Below are positions 5,553 through 13,057 of a stretch of 64,000 nt of DNA, piece after piece. The notes under the pieces were generated by a model, which searched no databases, was not told the DNA's origin, and worked only from the letters and a program-made list of their open reading frames with translations. Position 1 is the stretch's first letter. Every line of letters begins with the position of its first letter. The position numbers and the translations under genes are program-made. This DNA is from an uncultured virus (IMG/VR IMGVR_UViG_3300015264_000026). Taxonomy: Duplodnaviria > Heunggongvirae > Uroviricota > Caudoviricetes. The DNA is taken from the IMG/VR virus record IMGVR_UViG_3300015264_000026. One strand, 5' to 3'.

Positions 5553-5843
5553 ATGGCAAAGCACAAAAAGACCAATCGAGACGGCTATGAGGCTGTAATG
5601 GCGGCCCTTGAAAAGAAGGGCCACAGGTTCCCGGCAGCGGCCTTGGCTGGATTGCTGGGATACTCCAGGCAGGCGGTAGCCCAATGGAATGGCGTCATCC
5701 CCGAGATGTACGCCTATCGGGTATCGTTGCTATCCGGCGTGCCGATGGAGACCATATTGCCGGAGACGATTGCCGCCGTGGCAGCTAACGAGCGGCCAAG
5801 GGCGAGGAACAACAAGAACGGGACACGGCGGGAGCCAGCTTGA
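5553..5843 (+). CDS. Cro/YdaS-like HTH transcriptional regulator
   Basis: AALAGLLGYSRQAVAQWNGVIP HTH; first gene of rightward operon. Confidence 0.85.
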   Translation: MAKHKKTNRDGYEAVMAALEKKGHRFPAAALAGLLGYSRQAVAQWNGVIPEMYAYRVSLLSGVPMETILPETIAAVAANERPRARNNKNGTRREPA

Positions 5844-9874: not shown

Positions 9875-10204
9875 ATGAGGCGCGTTATTTTAGAATCCCC
9901 GTATGCAGGCAATTGGCTGCAACGATGGGCCAACATCAGATATGCCCGCAAATGTGTCAGGGACGCCATACAGCGGGGTGAAGCTCCGATTGCCTCGCAC
10001 CTGCTTTATACCCAGCGCGGCATCCTTGATGATACCAATCCCGCTGAGCGGCAGCTTGGCATCGACGCGGGGTTAGCTTGGAAGGCCGTCGCCGAGGCAT
10101 CCGTTGTCTATGCCGATCTCGGCATATCAAAGGGCATGGAGTACGGGATTGCGGCAGCGTCAAGGGCTGGGCTTCCAATCGAGTACCGCATCCTCAACCC
10201 CTAG
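9875..10204 (+). CDS. Small Rossmann-like phage protein (nucleoside deoxyribosyltransferase-like fold)
   Basis: VILESPYAG...GEAPIASHLLYTQ...GISKGMEYGI...GLPIEYR. Confidence 0.7.
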   Translation: MRRVILESPYAGNWLQRWANIRYARKCVRDAIQRGEAPIASHLLYTQRGILDDTNPAERQLGIDAGLAWKAVAEASVVYADLGISKGMEYGIAAASRAGLPIEYRILNP

Positions 10205-10258
10205 ACCGCTGAACACCACCACATACCGCCCATAGAAACCGAGCGAAACTCTAAGCTC

Positions 10259-10287
10259 TTGACGGTTTTATGAAGATGGGCCACAAA
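10259..10287 (+). promoter_or_regulatory. Putative sigma70 promoter TTGACG-17-CACAAA
   Basis: Immediately before the first hairpin of the non-coding block. Confidence 0.5.
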
Positions 10288-10291
10288 TGAT

Positions 10292-10733
10292 GAAGCCGCC
10301 CTCGTGGTGCTACGAGAGACGGCTTCGGTCCAGATAGGCTTTTGCGGGCAATCTGGAGTAACGCAACGGCATATATGGCTCATAACCGCCGTTTCGTCAA
10401 CCGACCAAGCCTGCGGCCCGGATTTAGTTCCGATTGAGCAAGCCTCCCAAAACAGCACCATCGGCCCGGCGGTTAGCGTCCGGGGACAAAGCGCGCGGCT
10501 CTTACCCCAGCGATGGGACCGTTCCGTCCGTGGGTGCTTGTGGACTAGCAGGGCATCCAAGAACCAAGGCAAGTTATGGCAATAGTATTTACCTTTCGCC
10601 GGGTGTCGTGGCGGGCCAGTCGAGTTGACCCTCGCTAAAAGGTACCTTGGGGATACGCGCCGTCTAGTTGGCTCAACCGCATGGCCCAGACCCAAGGAAG
10701 GGTAGGGAGGCCAGTCTTTGCGGAACGCGGACT
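10292..10733 (+). ncRNA. Candidate large structured non-coding RNA / replication origin region
   Basis: No credible ORF; at least seven stems, e.g. GAAGCCG/CGGCTTC, TCCAGAT/ATCTGGA, TACCTTT/AAAGGTA, CCTTGGG/CCCAAGG. Confidence 0.55.
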
Positions 10734-10748
10734 ATGGGAGAATTGAAA

Positions 10749-11003
10749 ATGGCTGTTATGGAACTAACGGACGATGAATTTGGTCTTGCTGCCGTATGGG
10801 CTAACAAGCTTCTAAGGGTGCAGGGTCCAACCGATTTTGGCTATATTTGCCTAGGAGCAGCAAGAAATCATACGCTGAGCCGAGAGCAGTTTAACGCCAT
10901 TAAGCGCACGATCGACGCTGGCATCCCCCACAAGGAAAGAACTCGCAAGAAAATCAACCAAGGCAAGAGCCGAAAACCAATCACTTTGCCTAAGGTTCTT
11001 TGA
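10749..11003 (+). CDS. Hypothetical protein
   Basis: RBS GGGAG, MAVMELTDDEF; overlaps dnaB start. Confidence 0.65.
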   Translation: MAVMELTDDEFGLAAVWANKLLRVQGPTDFGYICLGAARNHTLSREQFNAIKRTIDAGIPHKERTRKKINQGKSRKPITLPKVL

Positions 11004-12460
11004 TGATTGAGCCCCACTCAATCGCGATGGAGCAGCAACTCCTAGGCGCTTGCCTCATTAACAATCAGGTCTACGGCCTATGCGAATCAATCGTCTCGCC
11101 TGAAAGCTACTTCGAGCCTATCCACACCACGATTTGGCAGACCATGGGCCAGCTTATCACCCTTGGTAAGGTCGCCAGCCCAGTCACACTGCAAGCCTTC
11201 CTGCCAACCGGCATGAAAATCGGTACCATGACGCTAGGGCAATATCTTGCCCAATTGGCGGCCCAAAGCACAACAATCGTCAATTGCCGTGATTTTGCAA
11301 GAAACATCAGGGACTTATCAGATATACGTGCGCTTCGTAATGTCGGTAACGAAATATTGATCGCGCAAACTACCGATGCGGACGAATTGTCGACTTGGGC
11401 AATAGATCAGATCGACACCATCGCTAGCGCTAGATTTACGCAGGATAGCCCCTCTCTGACCTTGGCGGCCTCCGTGGTGCGTGCAGTTGATGCAGCTGCC
11501 AAGGCATATCAAAACGACGGGGCCGTTACAGGCATGTCCTACGGGCTCAGGGATTTGGACATCAAGACCGGCGGGCTGCATCGGGGGGAGCTGACATTGC
11601 TCGCCGGCAGGCCCGGAATGATGAAAACCGGGGTAGCCCTCAATTTCTGCCGCTCCCTCTGTTCCGAGCATATCGACGAACAAACTGGCGAAGTTCTCAA
11701 TCCCGGATACCGAGGAATATTTTTTAGTCTCGAAATGGGAGACATCCTGCTTTCGCAACGGCTGATGTCCGATATGATTTTCGGTCAGGCGCGTTCGCGT
11801 GAGGTGCCATACTCGCGGATCAGAAAGGGCGTCATCAGTGAGACTGAGTTCGGCTATCTTACCAGCGCTGGCCTCGCGCTCGCAAAACTTCCACTCCAGA
11901 TCGAACAGCAAGGCGGAATGAACTTGGCCCAGGTCGGGGCCAAGGCGAGACAGCAGAAGCGCAAAGGCGGACTGGATTTTATCATCGTCGACTACCTCCA
12001 ATTGATGGGGGTTGCTGATCGATATCGCGGCAACCGCGTCTCCGAAGTTTCGGAATTATCAAGCGGACTTTTGAAGTTGGCGAAAGATTTAGATGTTGCC
12101 ATGCTCGCGCTATGCCAGCTTAATCGAGGTGTCGAGAATCGCGAGGACAAACGGCCAAGCCTCGCAGATTTGCGCGAGTCAGGCTCGCTTGAACAAGACG
12201 CATCATTGGTCATCATGTTGTATCGCAAGGCTTATTATTTGCAGAACAAAGAGCCAAAGCCGGGCACGCCAGAATATGAACAATGGCAAACCGACATGAT
12301 CGAATGCTGGAACAAGCTCAACATTCAGATTGAGAAAAACAGGTCCGGTCCTGTCGGTATGGTGGAAGCTTACGTCAATCCAGCCGTGAACGCAGTGCGT
12401 GATTTGAACGCAGAATATCCCCAATCAATAGGAGATAACGATGGACTGGGATCGATTTGA
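11003..12460 (+). CDS. dnaB: DnaB-like replicative helicase
   Basis: EQQLLGACL N-domain; GRPGMMKT, FFSLEM, IIVDYLQLM, LCQLNRGVENREDKRPSLADLRESGSLEQDA, KNRSGP. Confidence 0.96.
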   Translation: MIEPHSIAMEQQLLGACLINNQVYGLCESIVSPESYFEPIHTTIWQTMGQLITLGKVASPVTLQAFLPTGMKIGTMTLGQYLAQLAAQSTTIVNCRDFARNIRDLSDIRALRNVGNEILIAQTTDADELSTWAIDQIDTIASARFTQDSPSLTLAASVVRAVDAAAKAYQNDGAVTGMSYGLRDLDIKTGGLHRGELTLLAGRPGMMKTGVALNFCRSLCSEHIDEQTGEVLNPGYRGIFFSLEMGDILLSQRLMSDMIFGQARSREVPYSRIRKGVISETEFGYLTSAGLALAKLPLQIEQQGGMNLAQVGAKARQQKRKGGLDFIIVDYLQLMGVADRYRGNRVSEVSELSSGLLKLAKDLDVAMLALCQLNRGVENREDKRPSLADLRESGSLEQDASLVIMLYRKAYYLQNKEPKPGTPEYEQWQTDMIECWNKLNIQIEKNRSGPVGMVEAYVNPAVNAVRDLNAEYPQSIGDNDGLGSI

Positions 12461-12614
12461 TGGTCAATTCCGAGAAACATTTGGCGAGACGCAGGATCGT
12501 TGGAGGGCGATTAAAGCCAAGCGGAAGGCCGAAGGCAAATGCTGGCAATGCGCGAAGGTAATTGCCGAATGTACTTGCCCAAACGTTCACCATCACGAAC
12601 GGAACGCCACATGA
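12441..12614 (+). CDS. Small zinc-binding protein (57 aa)
   Basis: RBS GGAG; MDWDRFDGQF...GKCWQCAKVIAECTCP; ATGA overlap with next gene. Confidence 0.65.
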   Translation: MDWDRFDGQFRETFGETQDRWRAIKAKRKAEGKCWQCAKVIAECTCPNVHHHERNAT

Positions 12615-13057
12615 CATCAGCTCAGCTATTCGACCTCCAATTGCCCGCACCACCAAAAGAAAAGAAGCTACCGGCAAAGATCGCATACACAGGCACATTC
12701 CTCGAATTCTGGAAACTCTATCCACCTCGTTTCAATTCAAGCAAATTTCTTGCATTCAAGGCATGGCGAAAGCTGGACGAAGACGAGCAACGGCAAGCGA
12801 TGGTAGCTGCACCAATCTACGCCAAGAGCGTGCGCGGCCAAGAGGAAAGATTCACCTATCACGCAGCGAGTTGGTTGAATGGGAAATATTTCGAGACGAT
12901 CGCCGCTCCCGTTGCGCCCTGTCAGACCATCAATATCGATTGGCCGCTCGTTCTGAGAATCTATGCCAAGACCAATAATTGGAATTTGGCCTATGGTCCA
13001 TCCCCATCCCAGCCTGGATGCAAGGTGCCGACAGAATTGCTGGAGAGGAAGCCATGA
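12611..13057 (+). CDS. Phage replication initiator C-terminal domain only
   Basis: FLEFWKLYPPR..SSKFLAFKAWRKL...HAASWLNGKYFE; no N-terminal origin-binding domain. Confidence 0.7.
   Translation: MTSAQLFDLQLPAPPKEKKLPAKIAYTGTFLEFWKLYPPRFNSSKFLAFKAWRKLDEDEQRQAMVAAPIYAKSVRGQEERFTYHAASWLNGKYFETIAAPVAPCQTINIDWPLVLRIYAKTNNWNLAYGPSPSQPGCKVPTELLERKP

What the first reader, a model, noticed from the sequence alone, without database searches (positions are those of the whole stretch)
10259..13057. ~450-nt structured non-coding RNA beside DnaB and a headless replication initiator: possible RNA-dependent origin
Seen: the largest non-coding block in an otherwise overlap-packed genome. It has its own promoter-like sequence (TTGACG 10259) and serial stems: GAAGCCG/CGGCTTC with inner CTCGT/ACGAG (10292-10326), TCCAGAT/ATCTGGA (10329-10357), CCCGG/CCGGG (10465-10484), GGGTGCTTG/CAGGGCATCC (10532-10558), nested TACCTTT-GGGT-TCG-TGGC/GCCA-CGA-ACCC-AAAGGTA (10590-10644), CCTTGGG/CCCAAGG (10645-10697), then the purine tract GGAAGGGTAGGGAGG (10696-10710). 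Downstream are dnaB and a 148-aa protein holding only the FxxFWxxYP...WLN C-terminal domain of phage initiators; I saw no iterons. Known: lambda O-type initiators need an N-terminal iteron-binding domain, while ColE1 RNA II and T4 origins start from R-loops (ColE1 via a G-rich tract). Inference: this RNA may replace the lost origin-binding domain as primer/R-loop, with the truncated protein recruiting the helicase.
Basis: partly seen in the sequence, partly recalled or inferred. Interest (0 to 1): 0.85.

Follow-up and report, generated by a model that had tools for sequence, protein, structure and literature searches.

The report
Antisense-controlled RNA leader before phage helicase
A conserved, folded, non-coding stretch in front of a soil phage's DNA-replication genes seems to make a long leader RNA and a short RNA from the opposite strand, much like the copy-number switches of plasmids, and it may set when or how strongly the phage copies its genome.

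Summary
The 544-bp gene-free block (10205-10748) is real and non-coding. Six other uncultured-phage contigs carry a related copy, always at the head of a replication-gene cluster. The nested stem, CCTTGGG/CCCAAGG and the purine tract are not conserved.

The first hairpin is a better, terminator-like hairpin on the minus strand, followed by a U-rich tail. A conserved TTGACG-N16-CTATNT promoter-like site faces it. Together they predict a 76-84-nt antisense RNA covering the first ~70 nt of a ~450-nt leader whose folds show compensatory changes.

Best reading (0.5): a countertranscript-controlled leader of the replication operon, with the geometry of plasmid copy control and of lambda pO/oop.

The ColE1-like primer idea is neither shown nor excluded. 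The antisense RNA strengthens the analogy, and the loss of the G tract weakens it.

The 148-aa protein does match only the C-terminal module of longer proteins, whose N-terminal domains are Phage_rep_O, DnaD_N/HTH_36 or DUF1376.

No transcript data exist. Whole-RNA folding energy is no better than shuffles, and a strict E. coli promoter rule finds nothing.

The parts
10205..10748 (.). Gene-free block holding the whole element
   Evidence: Not coding: no codon periodicity and many indels that are not multiples of 3. No Rfam family. No tRNA or tmRNA.
10259..10287 (+). Sense promoter-like site: -35 TTGACG (10259-10264), 17-nt spacer, weak -10-like CACAAA (10282-10287). The predicted start of the leader, near 10292, is inferred.
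   Evidence: The -35 aligns with TTGAC in 5 of 7 sequences and TTGC in 2 of 7. It fails the tool's E. coli rule. The A-rich -10-like motif is also the complement of the antisense U tract.
10292..10326 (.). P1 hairpin. On the minus strand it is a 14-bp GC-rich stem (one bulge, one U.G pair) read as the antisense RNA's terminator.
   Evidence: Present in 7 of 7 sequences. The minus-strand form is more stable in 5 of 7; in the window -22.0 against -18.8 kcal/mol. On the unfitted alignment 84.6% of cells pair and 3 of 9 pairs change on both sides.
10283..10291 (-). U-rich tail after P1 on the minus strand (AUCAUUUGU)
   Evidence: The homologous tails are CUUUUAU, UUUCAUUUGU, CCUUUUUAU, CUUUUUGU and CCUUUUGU. 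The generic scanner calls the whole hairpin plus tail a terminator in 3 of 7 loci and part of it in 1. It does not call it in the window, L006 or L003.
10329..10357 (.). P2 hairpin with a conserved loop (CUUUUGCGGG on the sense strand, CCCGCAAAAG on the antisense strand)
   Evidence: Present in 7 of 7 sequences. 80.4% of cells pair, 3 of 8 pairs change on both sides, and 0 of 500 shuffles reach the observed covariation score. The sense form is more stable in 6 of 7 through U.G pairs.
10361..10397 (+). P3 hairpin of the sense RNA; it overlaps the antisense promoter
   Evidence: Predicted independently in 7 of 7 sequences. The arms differ between sequences: AACGGC/GCCGUU, GAGCAA/UUGCUC, CAGGG/CCCUG.
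10373..10400 (-). Antisense promoter-like site: -35 TTGACG (10400 to 10395), 16-nt spacer, CCATAT (10378 to 10373)
   Evidence: TTGACG in 6 of 7 sequences and TTGAGC in 1 of 7. The second box is CTATAT, CTATGT (twice), CTAAGT, CTATTT or CCATAT (twice). It is one of 2 sites scoring 11 of 12 on both strands of the 64-kb window; shuffles give a mean of 0.65. It fails the E. coli rule of the tool.
10283..10366 (-). Predicted antisense RNA of about 84 nt (short tail, P2', P1' terminator). The ends are inferred, not observed.
   Evidence: The same construction gives 76-84 nt in 7 of 7 sequences. All fold as two hairpins.
10404..10735 (+). 3' domain of the leader (type A). Hairpin 10465-10484. Long-range helix 10491-10495 with 10656-10660. 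Hairpin 10531-10538 with 10552-10559. Helix 10564-10569 with 10645-10650. Helix 10677-10686 with 10709-10723. Candidate pseudoknot 10543-10548 with 10664-10669.
   Evidence: 65% identity to L003 over 510 nt and 73% to L136 over 498 nt. For the core, 95.5% of cells pair against 29-43% when partners are slid, and 8 of 30 pairs change on both sides. 85 of 89 cells are standard pairs on the + strand against 77 of 89 on the - strand. Further helices are listed.
10696..10710 (+). Purine tract GGAAGGGTAGGGAGG: the variable end loop of the last hairpin, not a conserved element
   Evidence: Absent in L136; a longer, different purine-rich insert in L003.
10749..11003 (+). 84-aa ORF directly after the leader (GGGAG at 10736-10740). 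No family hit. Absent in L003, where the leader runs straight into dnaB.
11000..12460 (+). DnaB-type replicative helicase
   Evidence: Pfam DnaB_C 6.9e-67 and DnaB 7.3e-18. PHROG 19.
12441..12614 (+). 57-aa ORF, no family hit
12611..13057 (+). 148-aa protein equal to the C-terminal module of longer DUF1376, Phage_rep_O or DnaD_N-headed proteins
   Evidence: The AlphaFold2 model is all-helical with pLDDT 79 and has no PDB fold match.

Best explanation
The block is a sense/antisense RNA control module at the head of the phage's replication operon.

Inferred transcripts. A rightward promoter-like site (-35 at 10259) would start a leader of about 450 nt near 10292. The leader begins with three hairpins (P1-P3) and continues as a multi-helix 3' domain that ends about 10 nt before the ribosome-binding site of the first gene. 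The operon is the 84-aa ORF, dnaB, the 57-aa ORF and the 148-aa initiator-like protein. A facing promoter-like site on the minus strand (-35 at 10400-10395) would start a short RNA of about 80 nt. That RNA consists of P2' and a terminator hairpin P1' with a U-rich tail, and it is fully complementary to the first ~70 nt of the leader.

Inferred action. The two RNAs meet through the conserved P2 loops. Pairing then lowers expression of the replication genes, by refolding the leader, by cleavage of the duplex, or by collision of the converging polymerases. Output of the replication genes would then fall as genome copies, and with them the antisense RNA, rise.

Shown here: conservation, non-coding nature, covarying helices, and strand-specific G.U patterns.

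Inferred, not shown: both transcripts, their ends, and the direction and mechanism of control.
For: Conservation. The 5' module occurs in 7 distinct sequences: the window, L003, L136, L004, L005, L006 and L226. nhmmer gave 5e-33 for L003 and 2.2e-69 for L136. A type-A profile reached L004 at 2.4e-4. A 6-sequence profile reached L226 at 5.3e-8. DnaB of L003 is only 54% identical in protein, yet the block is 65% identical in DNA. L136 shares 73% of the block while its flanking genes are different ones.

Not coding.

Hairpins. P1-P3 are predicted independently in 7 of 7 sequences, with z from -2.3 to -3.8. Pair counts on unfitted alignments: P1 84.6% paired against 28-45% when slid by 1-2 columns or by -3 (71% at +3), with 3 of 9 pairs changed on both sides. 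P2: 80.4% against 38-48%, with 3 of 8.

Strand signals. P1 is more stable on the minus strand in 5 of 7, with U.G pairs where the plus strand has an internal mismatch. P2 is more stable on the plus strand in 6 of 7. The 3' core has 85 of 89 standard pairs on the plus strand against 77 of 89 on the minus strand. This pattern is what two transcripts from opposite strands would give.

Terminator. A U-rich tail follows P1' in all 7. The generic scanner calls it in 3 of 7 loci and part of it in 1, and never on the sense strand.

Antisense promoter. TTGACG in 6 of 7, 15-16 nt, then CTATNT or CCATAT. It is in the top 2 of the whole window. Predicted antisense RNAs are 76-84 nt in 7 of 7 and fold as two hairpins.

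Leader 3' domain. Type A: 8 of 30 pairs change on both sides and 0 of 500 shuffles reach the score. Type B (L005 and L006): 75 predicted pairs, 10 compensatory, 0 broken.

Position. The element precedes dnaB or its operon in 6 of 7 copies and another replication-type cluster in L136.
Against: No transcript evidence exists. No listed sequencing run holding this DNA is on record as RNA.

The tool's E. coli sigma-70 rule finds 0 promoter-like sites in the module of any of the 7 loci, on either strand. The promoter reading rests on the -35 box and on a -10 consensus for alphaproteobacteria that I recall from memory.

The terminator scanner misses P1' in 3 of 7 loci, the window among them. Several U tracts start 2-4 nt after the stem.

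Whole-leader folding energy is no better than shuffles: z -0.59 for the window, -0.10 for L136 and -1.98 for L003.

Only 7 sequences are known, and only 3 for the type-A 3' domain. They are related, so shuffle controls overstate significance.

The structure tested was derived from these same sequences on the plus strand, which biases.

No terminator or RBS-masking helix that the antisense RNA could switch was identified, so the step from pairing to control is unexplained.

A covariance model built from the window alone recovered only L136 clearly. L004 and L226 came in at E 0.27 and 0.65, and L003, L005 and L006 were not found at the right place.
Confidence: 0.5

Rival explanations
1. ColE1-like RNA-dependent origin. 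The ~450-nt leader is a pre-primer that forms a persistent RNA-DNA hybrid near its 3' end. The opened DNA is used to load the phage DnaB, helped by the headless 148-aa protein. The ~80-nt antisense RNA plays the part of RNA I.
For: The geometry matches ColE1 as described in PMC5043065 (passages read): a non-coding RNA from a promoter ~550 bp upstream of the origin, and a ~110-nt RNA fully complementary to its 5' end whose binding refolds it. Here the leader is ~450-485 nt in the window, L003, L136, L005 and L006, and the antisense RNA is 76-84 nt. No iterons were found. DnaA-box-like sites are not enriched. No full-length initiator or primase was found in the window. The 148-aa protein lacks the N-terminal domain of its longer relatives.
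Against: The proposed G tract is not conserved. The 3' part, where a hybrid would have to form, is the least conserved part between type A and type B: R1 finds no type-B copy. In type A the structure ends ~10 nt before a ribosome-binding site and a gene, as an mRNA leader would. No AT-rich or other origin feature was seen. No call tests R-loop formation. About 4.9 kb of the contig lies outside the window (contig length), and most ORFs are unannotated, so an initiator may have been missed.
Confidence: 0.12
2. A purely cis-acting leader, such as a protein- or ligand-binding switch or a put-like antitermination RNA. The minus-strand promoter and terminator look-alikes would then be by-products of sense-strand constraints.
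For: The 3' domain covaries and favours the plus strand. P2 and P3 are better on the sense strand. The strict promoter rule calls no antisense promoter. The conserved single-stranded CGUCAAC and the P2 loop could be binding sites.
Against: This does not explain why P1 is systematically better on the minus strand, with U.G pairs opposite plus-strand mismatches, in 5 of 7 sequences. It does not explain why a U-rich tail follows P1 on that strand in all 7. It does not explain why the conserved motif is a perfect -35 hexamer in 6 of 7, at 15-16 nt from a TA-rich box. No Rfam riboswitch or leader family matches.
Confidence: 0.15
3. A DNA-level replication origin or single-strand initiation signal. 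The hairpins would form in single-stranded DNA, and the conserved blocks would be protein-binding sites.
For: The location is inside the replication module. The hairpins are present on both strands. L136 encodes a stand-alone DnaA domain-IV protein upstream of its copy. The invariant 15-mer holds TGTGGACTA, 7 of 9 to a DnaA box.
Against: No iterons. No enrichment of DnaA-box-like sites: 2-3 sites with 2 mismatches in 544 bp against a background of 1.8-2.4 per kb, and no TCCACA core in the four type-B copies. GC is 55% with no AT-rich stretch. Strand-asymmetric G.U patterns are what RNA helices show, not DNA hairpins.
Confidence: 0.08
4. A stand-alone, trans-acting large structured RNA of unknown function, whose position next to dnaB is incidental.
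For: Size, multi-helix fold, invariant loops and a candidate pseudoknot. No known family.
Against: There is no terminator on the sense strand between the structure and the next gene. The 3' end abuts a ribosome-binding site in 3 of 3 type-A copies. The element always lies at the head of a replication cluster.
Confidence: 0.05

Closest known systems
ColE1 RNA II / RNA I replication control
   Same: A long non-coding sense RNA from a dedicated promoter, several hundred nt in length. A short antisense RNA fully complementary to its 5' end, made of stem-loops and ending near the sense start. A location in the replication region (ColE1 facts from PMC5043065, passages read).
   Different: No sequence or Rfam match. 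The antisense RNA is ~80 nt with two hairpins, not ~110 nt. The sense RNA runs into protein-coding replication genes. The phage encodes its own DnaB and an initiator-like protein, whereas ColE1 encodes no initiator. Primer or R-loop function is untested, and the candidate G tract is not conserved.
Plasmid countertranscripts that control rep expression (pMV158 RNAII from the abstract listed; R1 CopA/CopT, pT181, IncB RNAI and repABC ctRNA recalled from memory)
   Same: A small untranslated RNA with its own promoter and intrinsic terminator. It is encoded opposite the leader of the replication genes and has loop sequences suited to a first kissing contact.
   Different: The host is a tailed phage, not a plasmid. 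The target leader is unusually long (~450 nt) and itself conserved and structured. The antisense RNA pairs ~380 nt upstream of the first start codon. No attenuator or RBS-masking helix was identified. No Rfam ctRNA family matches.
Phage lambda pO promoter / oop RNA
   Same: A short leftward transcript from a promoter that converges on the rightward early operon, just upstream of the replication genes. pO activity modulates replication through cross-talk with rightward transcription. oop was once proposed as a primer (PMC3985674, abstract and passages read).
   Different: oop is antisense to the coding gene cII, while the predicted RNA here is antisense to a non-coding leader. Lambda has a full O initiator with iterons inside the O gene, and neither was found here. 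There is no sequence similarity.
Lambda O-type, DnaD-type and DUF1376 (YdaU-like) replication proteins
   Same: The 148-aa protein shares their C-terminal module (the FWxxYP...WLNGKYFE region): PHROG 270 positions 165-254 of 383, and 35% identity to residues 140-285 of a 303-aa DUF1376 protein.
   Different: It lacks any N-terminal DUF1376, Phage_rep_O or HTH_36/DnaD_N domain. It belongs to a family of 44 similarly short relatives. Its fold has no PDB match.

Membership tests
ColE1-type RNA II/RNA I origin | Long non-coding sense RNA from a promoter several hundred bp upstream of the initiation point | tested here: inconclusive
   A ~450-nt non-coding stretch lies downstream of a conserved -35-like box. 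No initiation point is known, and the transcript is inferred only.
ColE1-type RNA II/RNA I origin | [quoted passage not shown] | tested here: inconclusive
   Predicted in 7 of 7 sequences from a promoter-like site plus a terminator-like hairpin, 76-84 nt long. No RNA data.
ColE1-type RNA II/RNA I origin | Persistent RNA-DNA hybrid at the origin, RNase H processing and Pol I extension | not testable with these tools
   The one sequence candidate, the G-rich tract 10696-10710, is not conserved.
ColE1-type RNA II/RNA I origin | No element-encoded initiator protein | tested here: not met
   The cluster encodes DnaB and an initiator-related 148-aa protein.
ColE1-type RNA II/RNA I origin | Sequence/structure match to the curated RNA families of Rfam (which I recall include RNA I), or DNA similarity to plasmids | tested here: not met
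   No Rfam match at gathering score in the window. Only a chance snoRNA hit at E 3.9 in 10100-10850. Nothing at E<=1 in 6 related loci. No blastn match in 72,556 plasmids.
Plasmid-type countertranscript (ctRNA) control of replication genes | Small untranslated RNA gene on the strand opposite the leader of the replication genes, with its own promoter | tested here: inconclusive
   TTGACG-N15/16-CTATNT-like site in 7 of 7 sequences, in the top 2 of the window. It fails the strict E. coli rule.
Plasmid-type countertranscript (ctRNA) control of replication genes | Intrinsic terminator ending the small RNA | tested here: met
   A GC-rich hairpin of 11-14 bp with a U-rich tail on the minus strand in 7 of 7 sequences. 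The generic scanner calls it in 3 of 7 loci and partly in 1.
Plasmid-type countertranscript (ctRNA) control of replication genes | Pairing inhibits rep expression (attenuation, translation block or cleavage) | not testable with these tools
   No attenuator or RBS-masking helix was identified in the leader.
Lambda pO/oop | Short leftward RNA converging on the rightward early operon, upstream of the replication genes | tested here: inconclusive
   The geometry is the same. A weak Cro-like gene lies at 5553-5843 at the head of the rightward genes. The transcripts are inferred.
Lambda pO/oop | Antisense to the 3' end of the cII coding gene | tested here: not met
   The predicted RNA is antisense to non-coding sequence.
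Known large or phage-linked structured RNAs in Rfam (I recall GOLLD, ROOL and HEARO among them; also tmRNA, RNase P RNA, group I/II introns) | Match to the covariance model | tested here: not met
Lambda O-type initiator (for the 148-aa protein) | N-terminal origin-binding domain (Phage_rep_O or winged helix) plus a C-terminal module | tested here: not met
   Only the C-terminal module is present. Longer relatives do carry the N-terminal domains.

The most novel reading that the evidence does not exclude
A tailed phage of a probably alphaproteobacterial host starts replication as ColE1 does. The ~450-nt folded leader would act as a pre-primer or R-loop former. Its opened DNA would be used to load the phage's own DnaB with the help of an initiator that has lost its origin-binding head. 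An ~80-nt RNA-I-like antisense RNA would set the firing rate. That would be an RNA-defined origin with antisense copy control inside a virus genome.
Probability: 0.12. Interest if true: 0.9.

Novelty: new variant of a known kind. Interest (0 to 1): 0.6.

Why it matters
Antisense copy-control modules are textbook for plasmids. In phages, lambda's pO/oop region is the example I read here.

Here a conserved, covarying ~450-nt leader and a predicted countertranscript sit at the head of the helicase operon in a family of uncultured soil phages. These phages' initiator-like protein lacks a DNA-binding head, and their replication regions show no iterons.

If the module controls replication-gene expression, it is a new RNA family and a new example of plasmid-style feedback in a virus. 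If it defines the origin, it would answer how these phages choose where to start without an origin-binding protein.

Either way the region is small enough (about 0.8-2.9 kb) to be cloned and tested directly.

Tried and rejected
Protein-coding reading. The 164-aa minus-strand ORF 10201-10695 and the 93-aa plus-strand ORF were rejected. There is no codon periodicity and there are frame-breaking indels. Neither has a family hit.

Known RNA families. Nothing in Rfam. No tRNA or tmRNA.

Iterons. None in the block or downstream of the 148-aa gene.

DnaA boxes. Not enriched.

RNA evidence. No RNA holder listed for window:9000-13100. The only holder is a soil-metagenome DNA run that may be the source of this DNA.

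More homologues.
- The single-protein DnaB query found nothing.
- The genome contigs protein scan and DNA pattern scan found nothing.
- The metagenome scan gave 5 short contigs without the element.
- Of four DNA-pattern scans of IMG/VR, only one search added a new contig (L136); the others returned chance matches or contigs already held.
- blastn against isolated phages and plasmids found nothing in the block.

Covariance models. R1 (type-A 3' core) finds no type-B copy. R2, built from the window sequence alone, is too weak to align all 7. RNAalifold on a MAFFT alignment of the whole antisense RNA failed because the arms were misaligned. I therefore used hairpin-bounded alignments and per-sequence folds. 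The register-based count ('6 of 6 positions compensatory') is inflated by uncertain register and is not used as a statistic. That script also stopped with an index error after printing the tables.

148-aa protein. No PDB match by sequence or by fold. The Atlas gave only unnamed viral clusters.

Full report
WHAT IS THERE. The window is a tailed-phage genome. It encodes terminase, portal, head, tail and lysis genes, and its nearest held record is an IMG/VR contig identical over the block. Genes run rightward from a divergent junction near 5.5 kb, where a weak Cro-like ORF lies. Then come a RusA-like gene, a beta-clamp gene, a DNA methylase and a DUF7768 gene that ends at 10204. From 10205 to 10748 no convincing gene exists. 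Next come an 84-aa ORF (GGGAG 10736-10740, ATG 10749), dnaB (11000-12460), a 57-aa ORF and the 148-aa protein (12611-13057).

A 164-aa minus-strand ORF spans the block, but it is not a gene. Against the two closest homologues, substitutions are spread evenly over codon positions: 0.25/0.25/0.25 for L136 and 0.41/0.38/0.38 for L003. Indels of 1, 2, 5, 7 and 17 nt break every frame.

RELATIVES. The 148-aa protein has 44 relatives of 136-163 aa. Its alignment brought in four viral contigs, L003-L006, all with dnaB just upstream.

- nhmmer found the block in L003: 65% identity over 510 nt, E 5e-33. DnaB of L003 is only 54% identical in protein.
- An invariant 15-mer led to L136. It shares 73% of the block but has different neighbours: an XRE-type HTH gene downstream, and a GcrA-like gene and a stand-alone DnaA domain-IV gene upstream.
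- A DnaB alignment added L226.
- L004, L005, L006 and L226 ('type B') share only the first ~150 nt with the window, L003 and L136 ('type A').
- Four other contigs with dnaB relatives and upstream sequence (L227, L229, L232, L008) lack the element.
- Nothing similar was found in 185,579 species genomes by one pattern, in 72,556 plasmids or in 50,697 isolated phages. No Rfam family matches the window or six related loci.

Four of the seven hold.

- Hairpins 10292-10326 (P1) and 10329-10357 (P2) appear at the same place in all seven sequences when each is folded alone, together with a third hairpin, P3. The z-scores run from -2.3 to -3.8.
- On MAFFT alignments that were not fitted to any structure, P1 pairs in 84.6% of cells, against 28-45% when partners are slid by 1-2 columns or by -3 (71% at +3). 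P2 pairs in 80.4%, against 38-48%. Changes on both sides occur in 3 of 9 and 3 of 8 pairs.
- CCCGG/CCGGG is kept in 3 of 3 type-A sequences.
- GGGTGCTTG/CAGGGCATCC has 5 of 8 pairs changed on both sides.
- The nested stem, CCTTGGG/CCCAAGG and the purine tract are not conserved. CCTTGG pairs instead with CCAAGG at 10564-10569.

As a whole the plus-strand RNA folds no better than shuffled sequence: z -0.37 and -0.59 for the window, -0.10 for L136 and -1.98 for L003. The case for structure therefore rests on covariation, not on energy.

On the minus strand P1 becomes an almost perfect 11-14-bp GC-rich stem.

- In most copies a U.G pair on the minus strand stands where the plus strand has an internal mismatch. 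The minus form is more stable in 5 of 7 sequences, for example -22.0 against -18.8 kcal/mol in the window and -22.8 against -15.9 in L136.
- On that strand a U-rich tail follows in all seven. A generic scanner calls the hairpin and tail a terminator in L136, L005 and L226 and partly in L004. It does not do so in the window, L006 or L003.
- The invariant plus-strand motif CGTCAAC reads GTTGACG on the minus strand. TTGACG is present in 6 of 7 sequences. After 15-16 nt comes CTATAT, CTATGT, CTAAGT, CTATTT or CCATAT.
- Scored against TTGACG-N15-17-CTATAT, this is one of only two 11-of-12 sites on both strands of the 64-kb window; shuffles give 0.65. That consensus for alphaproteobacterial promoters is recalled from memory, not taken from a call.
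- The tool's E. coli rule, which demands T at the last -10 position, calls no promoter on either strand in any of the seven loci. This is a real weakness.
- Taking a start 6 nt after the -10 and an end at the U tract gives an RNA of 76-84 nt in all seven. It folds as two hairpins.

P2, by contrast, is more stable on the plus strand in 6 of 7 sequences. The type-A 3' core has 85 of 89 standard pairs on the plus strand against 77 of 89 on the minus strand, with the caveat that the structure was derived on the plus strand. Selection therefore seems to act on RNA from both strands: a long sense RNA and a short antisense RNA over its 5' end.

THE LEADER. The type-A 3' domain (10404-10735) has helices with compensatory changes: 8 of 30 pairs, 95.5% of cells paired, and 0 of 500 shuffles as high. 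They include a long-range helix 10491-10495 with 10656-10660. An invariant hairpin loop (GACUAG, 10543-10548) can pair with an invariant CUAGU(U/C) at 10664-10669. In that pairing 5 of 6 pairs never vary, so it is only a candidate.

The structure ends about 10 nt before the ribosome-binding site in all three type-A copies. In L003 the next gene is dnaB itself. No sense-strand terminator intervenes.

Type B has an unrelated 3' part of similar length. In L005 and L006, 75 pairs are predicted, 10 of them compensatory and none broken. From the predicted sense start to the first ATG is about 450-485 nt in five copies.

MECHANISM. I commit to a countertranscript-controlled leader of the replication operon, with confidence 0.5. 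The antisense RNA would pair with the first ~70 nt of the leader, probably starting at the conserved P2 loops. This would lower expression of dnaB and its partners.

How pairing is transmitted is not shown. It could be leader refolding, duplex cleavage or polymerase collision, and I found no attenuator or RBS-masking helix.

The closest phage precedent is lambda's pO/oop. It is a short leftward transcript converging on pR just upstream of O and P. Its promoter activity tunes replication, and it was once proposed as a primer (PMC3985674, abstract and passages).

The closest overall geometry is ColE1 RNA II/RNA I (PMC5043065, passages).

It stays open at about 0.12.

For it: the ColE1-like geometry now includes an RNA-I-like partner. 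There are no iterons and no DnaA-box enrichment. No full initiator or primase was found among the ORFs scanned. The initiator relative is truly headless: it aligns to residues 140-285 of a 303-aa protein whose DUF1376 domain lies at 10-89. Other relatives bear Phage_rep_O or HTH_36/DnaD_N heads.

Against it: the G tract is not conserved. The 3' region differs between types. The RNA ends at a gene start, as a leader would. About 4.9 kb of the contig and many unannotated ORFs remain unexamined.

LIMITS. There are only seven related sequences, and only three for the type-A 3' domain. There are no transcript data. The promoter calls depend on a recalled consensus. The host is inferred only from a GcrA-like gene in one relative.

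VERDICT. This is a real, conserved, undescribed RNA-level element, best filed as a new variant of antisense-controlled replication modules. Interest 0.6.

Noticed in passing
L008:1069-3435: The dnaB relative on this metagenome contig is split. Residues 5-209 and 236-467 lie about 1 kb apart, which may be an intein or a homing-element insertion.
   Followed up: no
L136:3177-4864 (minus strand of the locus): Upstream of its copy of the element, L136 encodes a GcrA-like regulator (PF07750, 2.1e-20) and a stand-alone DnaA domain-IV protein (PF08299, 1.5e-23). The gene after the element is an XRE-type HTH. This suggests an alphaproteobacterial host and interference with the host cell cycle or DnaA.
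   Followed up: partly
window:5456-5843: A divergent gene junction with a weak P22_Cro-like ORF (5553-5843, E 3.5e-5, below Pfam's cutoff) at the head of the rightward genes. The layout resembles a lambdoid early region.
   Followed up: no
window:21297-23882: The 861-aa large terminase matches terminase profiles in two separated stretches, about 42-320 and 720-820. It may carry an insertion.
   Followed up: no
window:14442 (minus strand): The only other site in the window that scores 11 of 12 against TTGACG-N16-CTATAT (TTGACG ... CTTTAT), facing leftward among small unannotated ORFs.
   Followed up: no
L003:4149-4988; L004:~1860-2720; L226:1240-2061; L227:1405-2136: A gene beginning MAE(K/V)..AWCD/WTDATFNPWIGC, which I recall as DUF5131/Gp37Gp68-like (no call scanned it), moves within the module. 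It lies between dnaB and the 148-aa gene in L003 and upstream of dnaB in L004, L226 and L227.
   Followed up: no
window:10201-10695 (minus strand): A 164-aa open frame almost exactly spans the non-coding block, yet it is not conserved as a frame. It could mislead automatic annotation.
   Followed up: yes
window:12441-12614: The 57-aa ORF overlapping the end of dnaB has a CxxC...CxC pattern and no family hit. It has no counterpart in L005, L006 or L226, where dnaB and the 148-aa gene are 14-17 nt apart.
   Followed up: no
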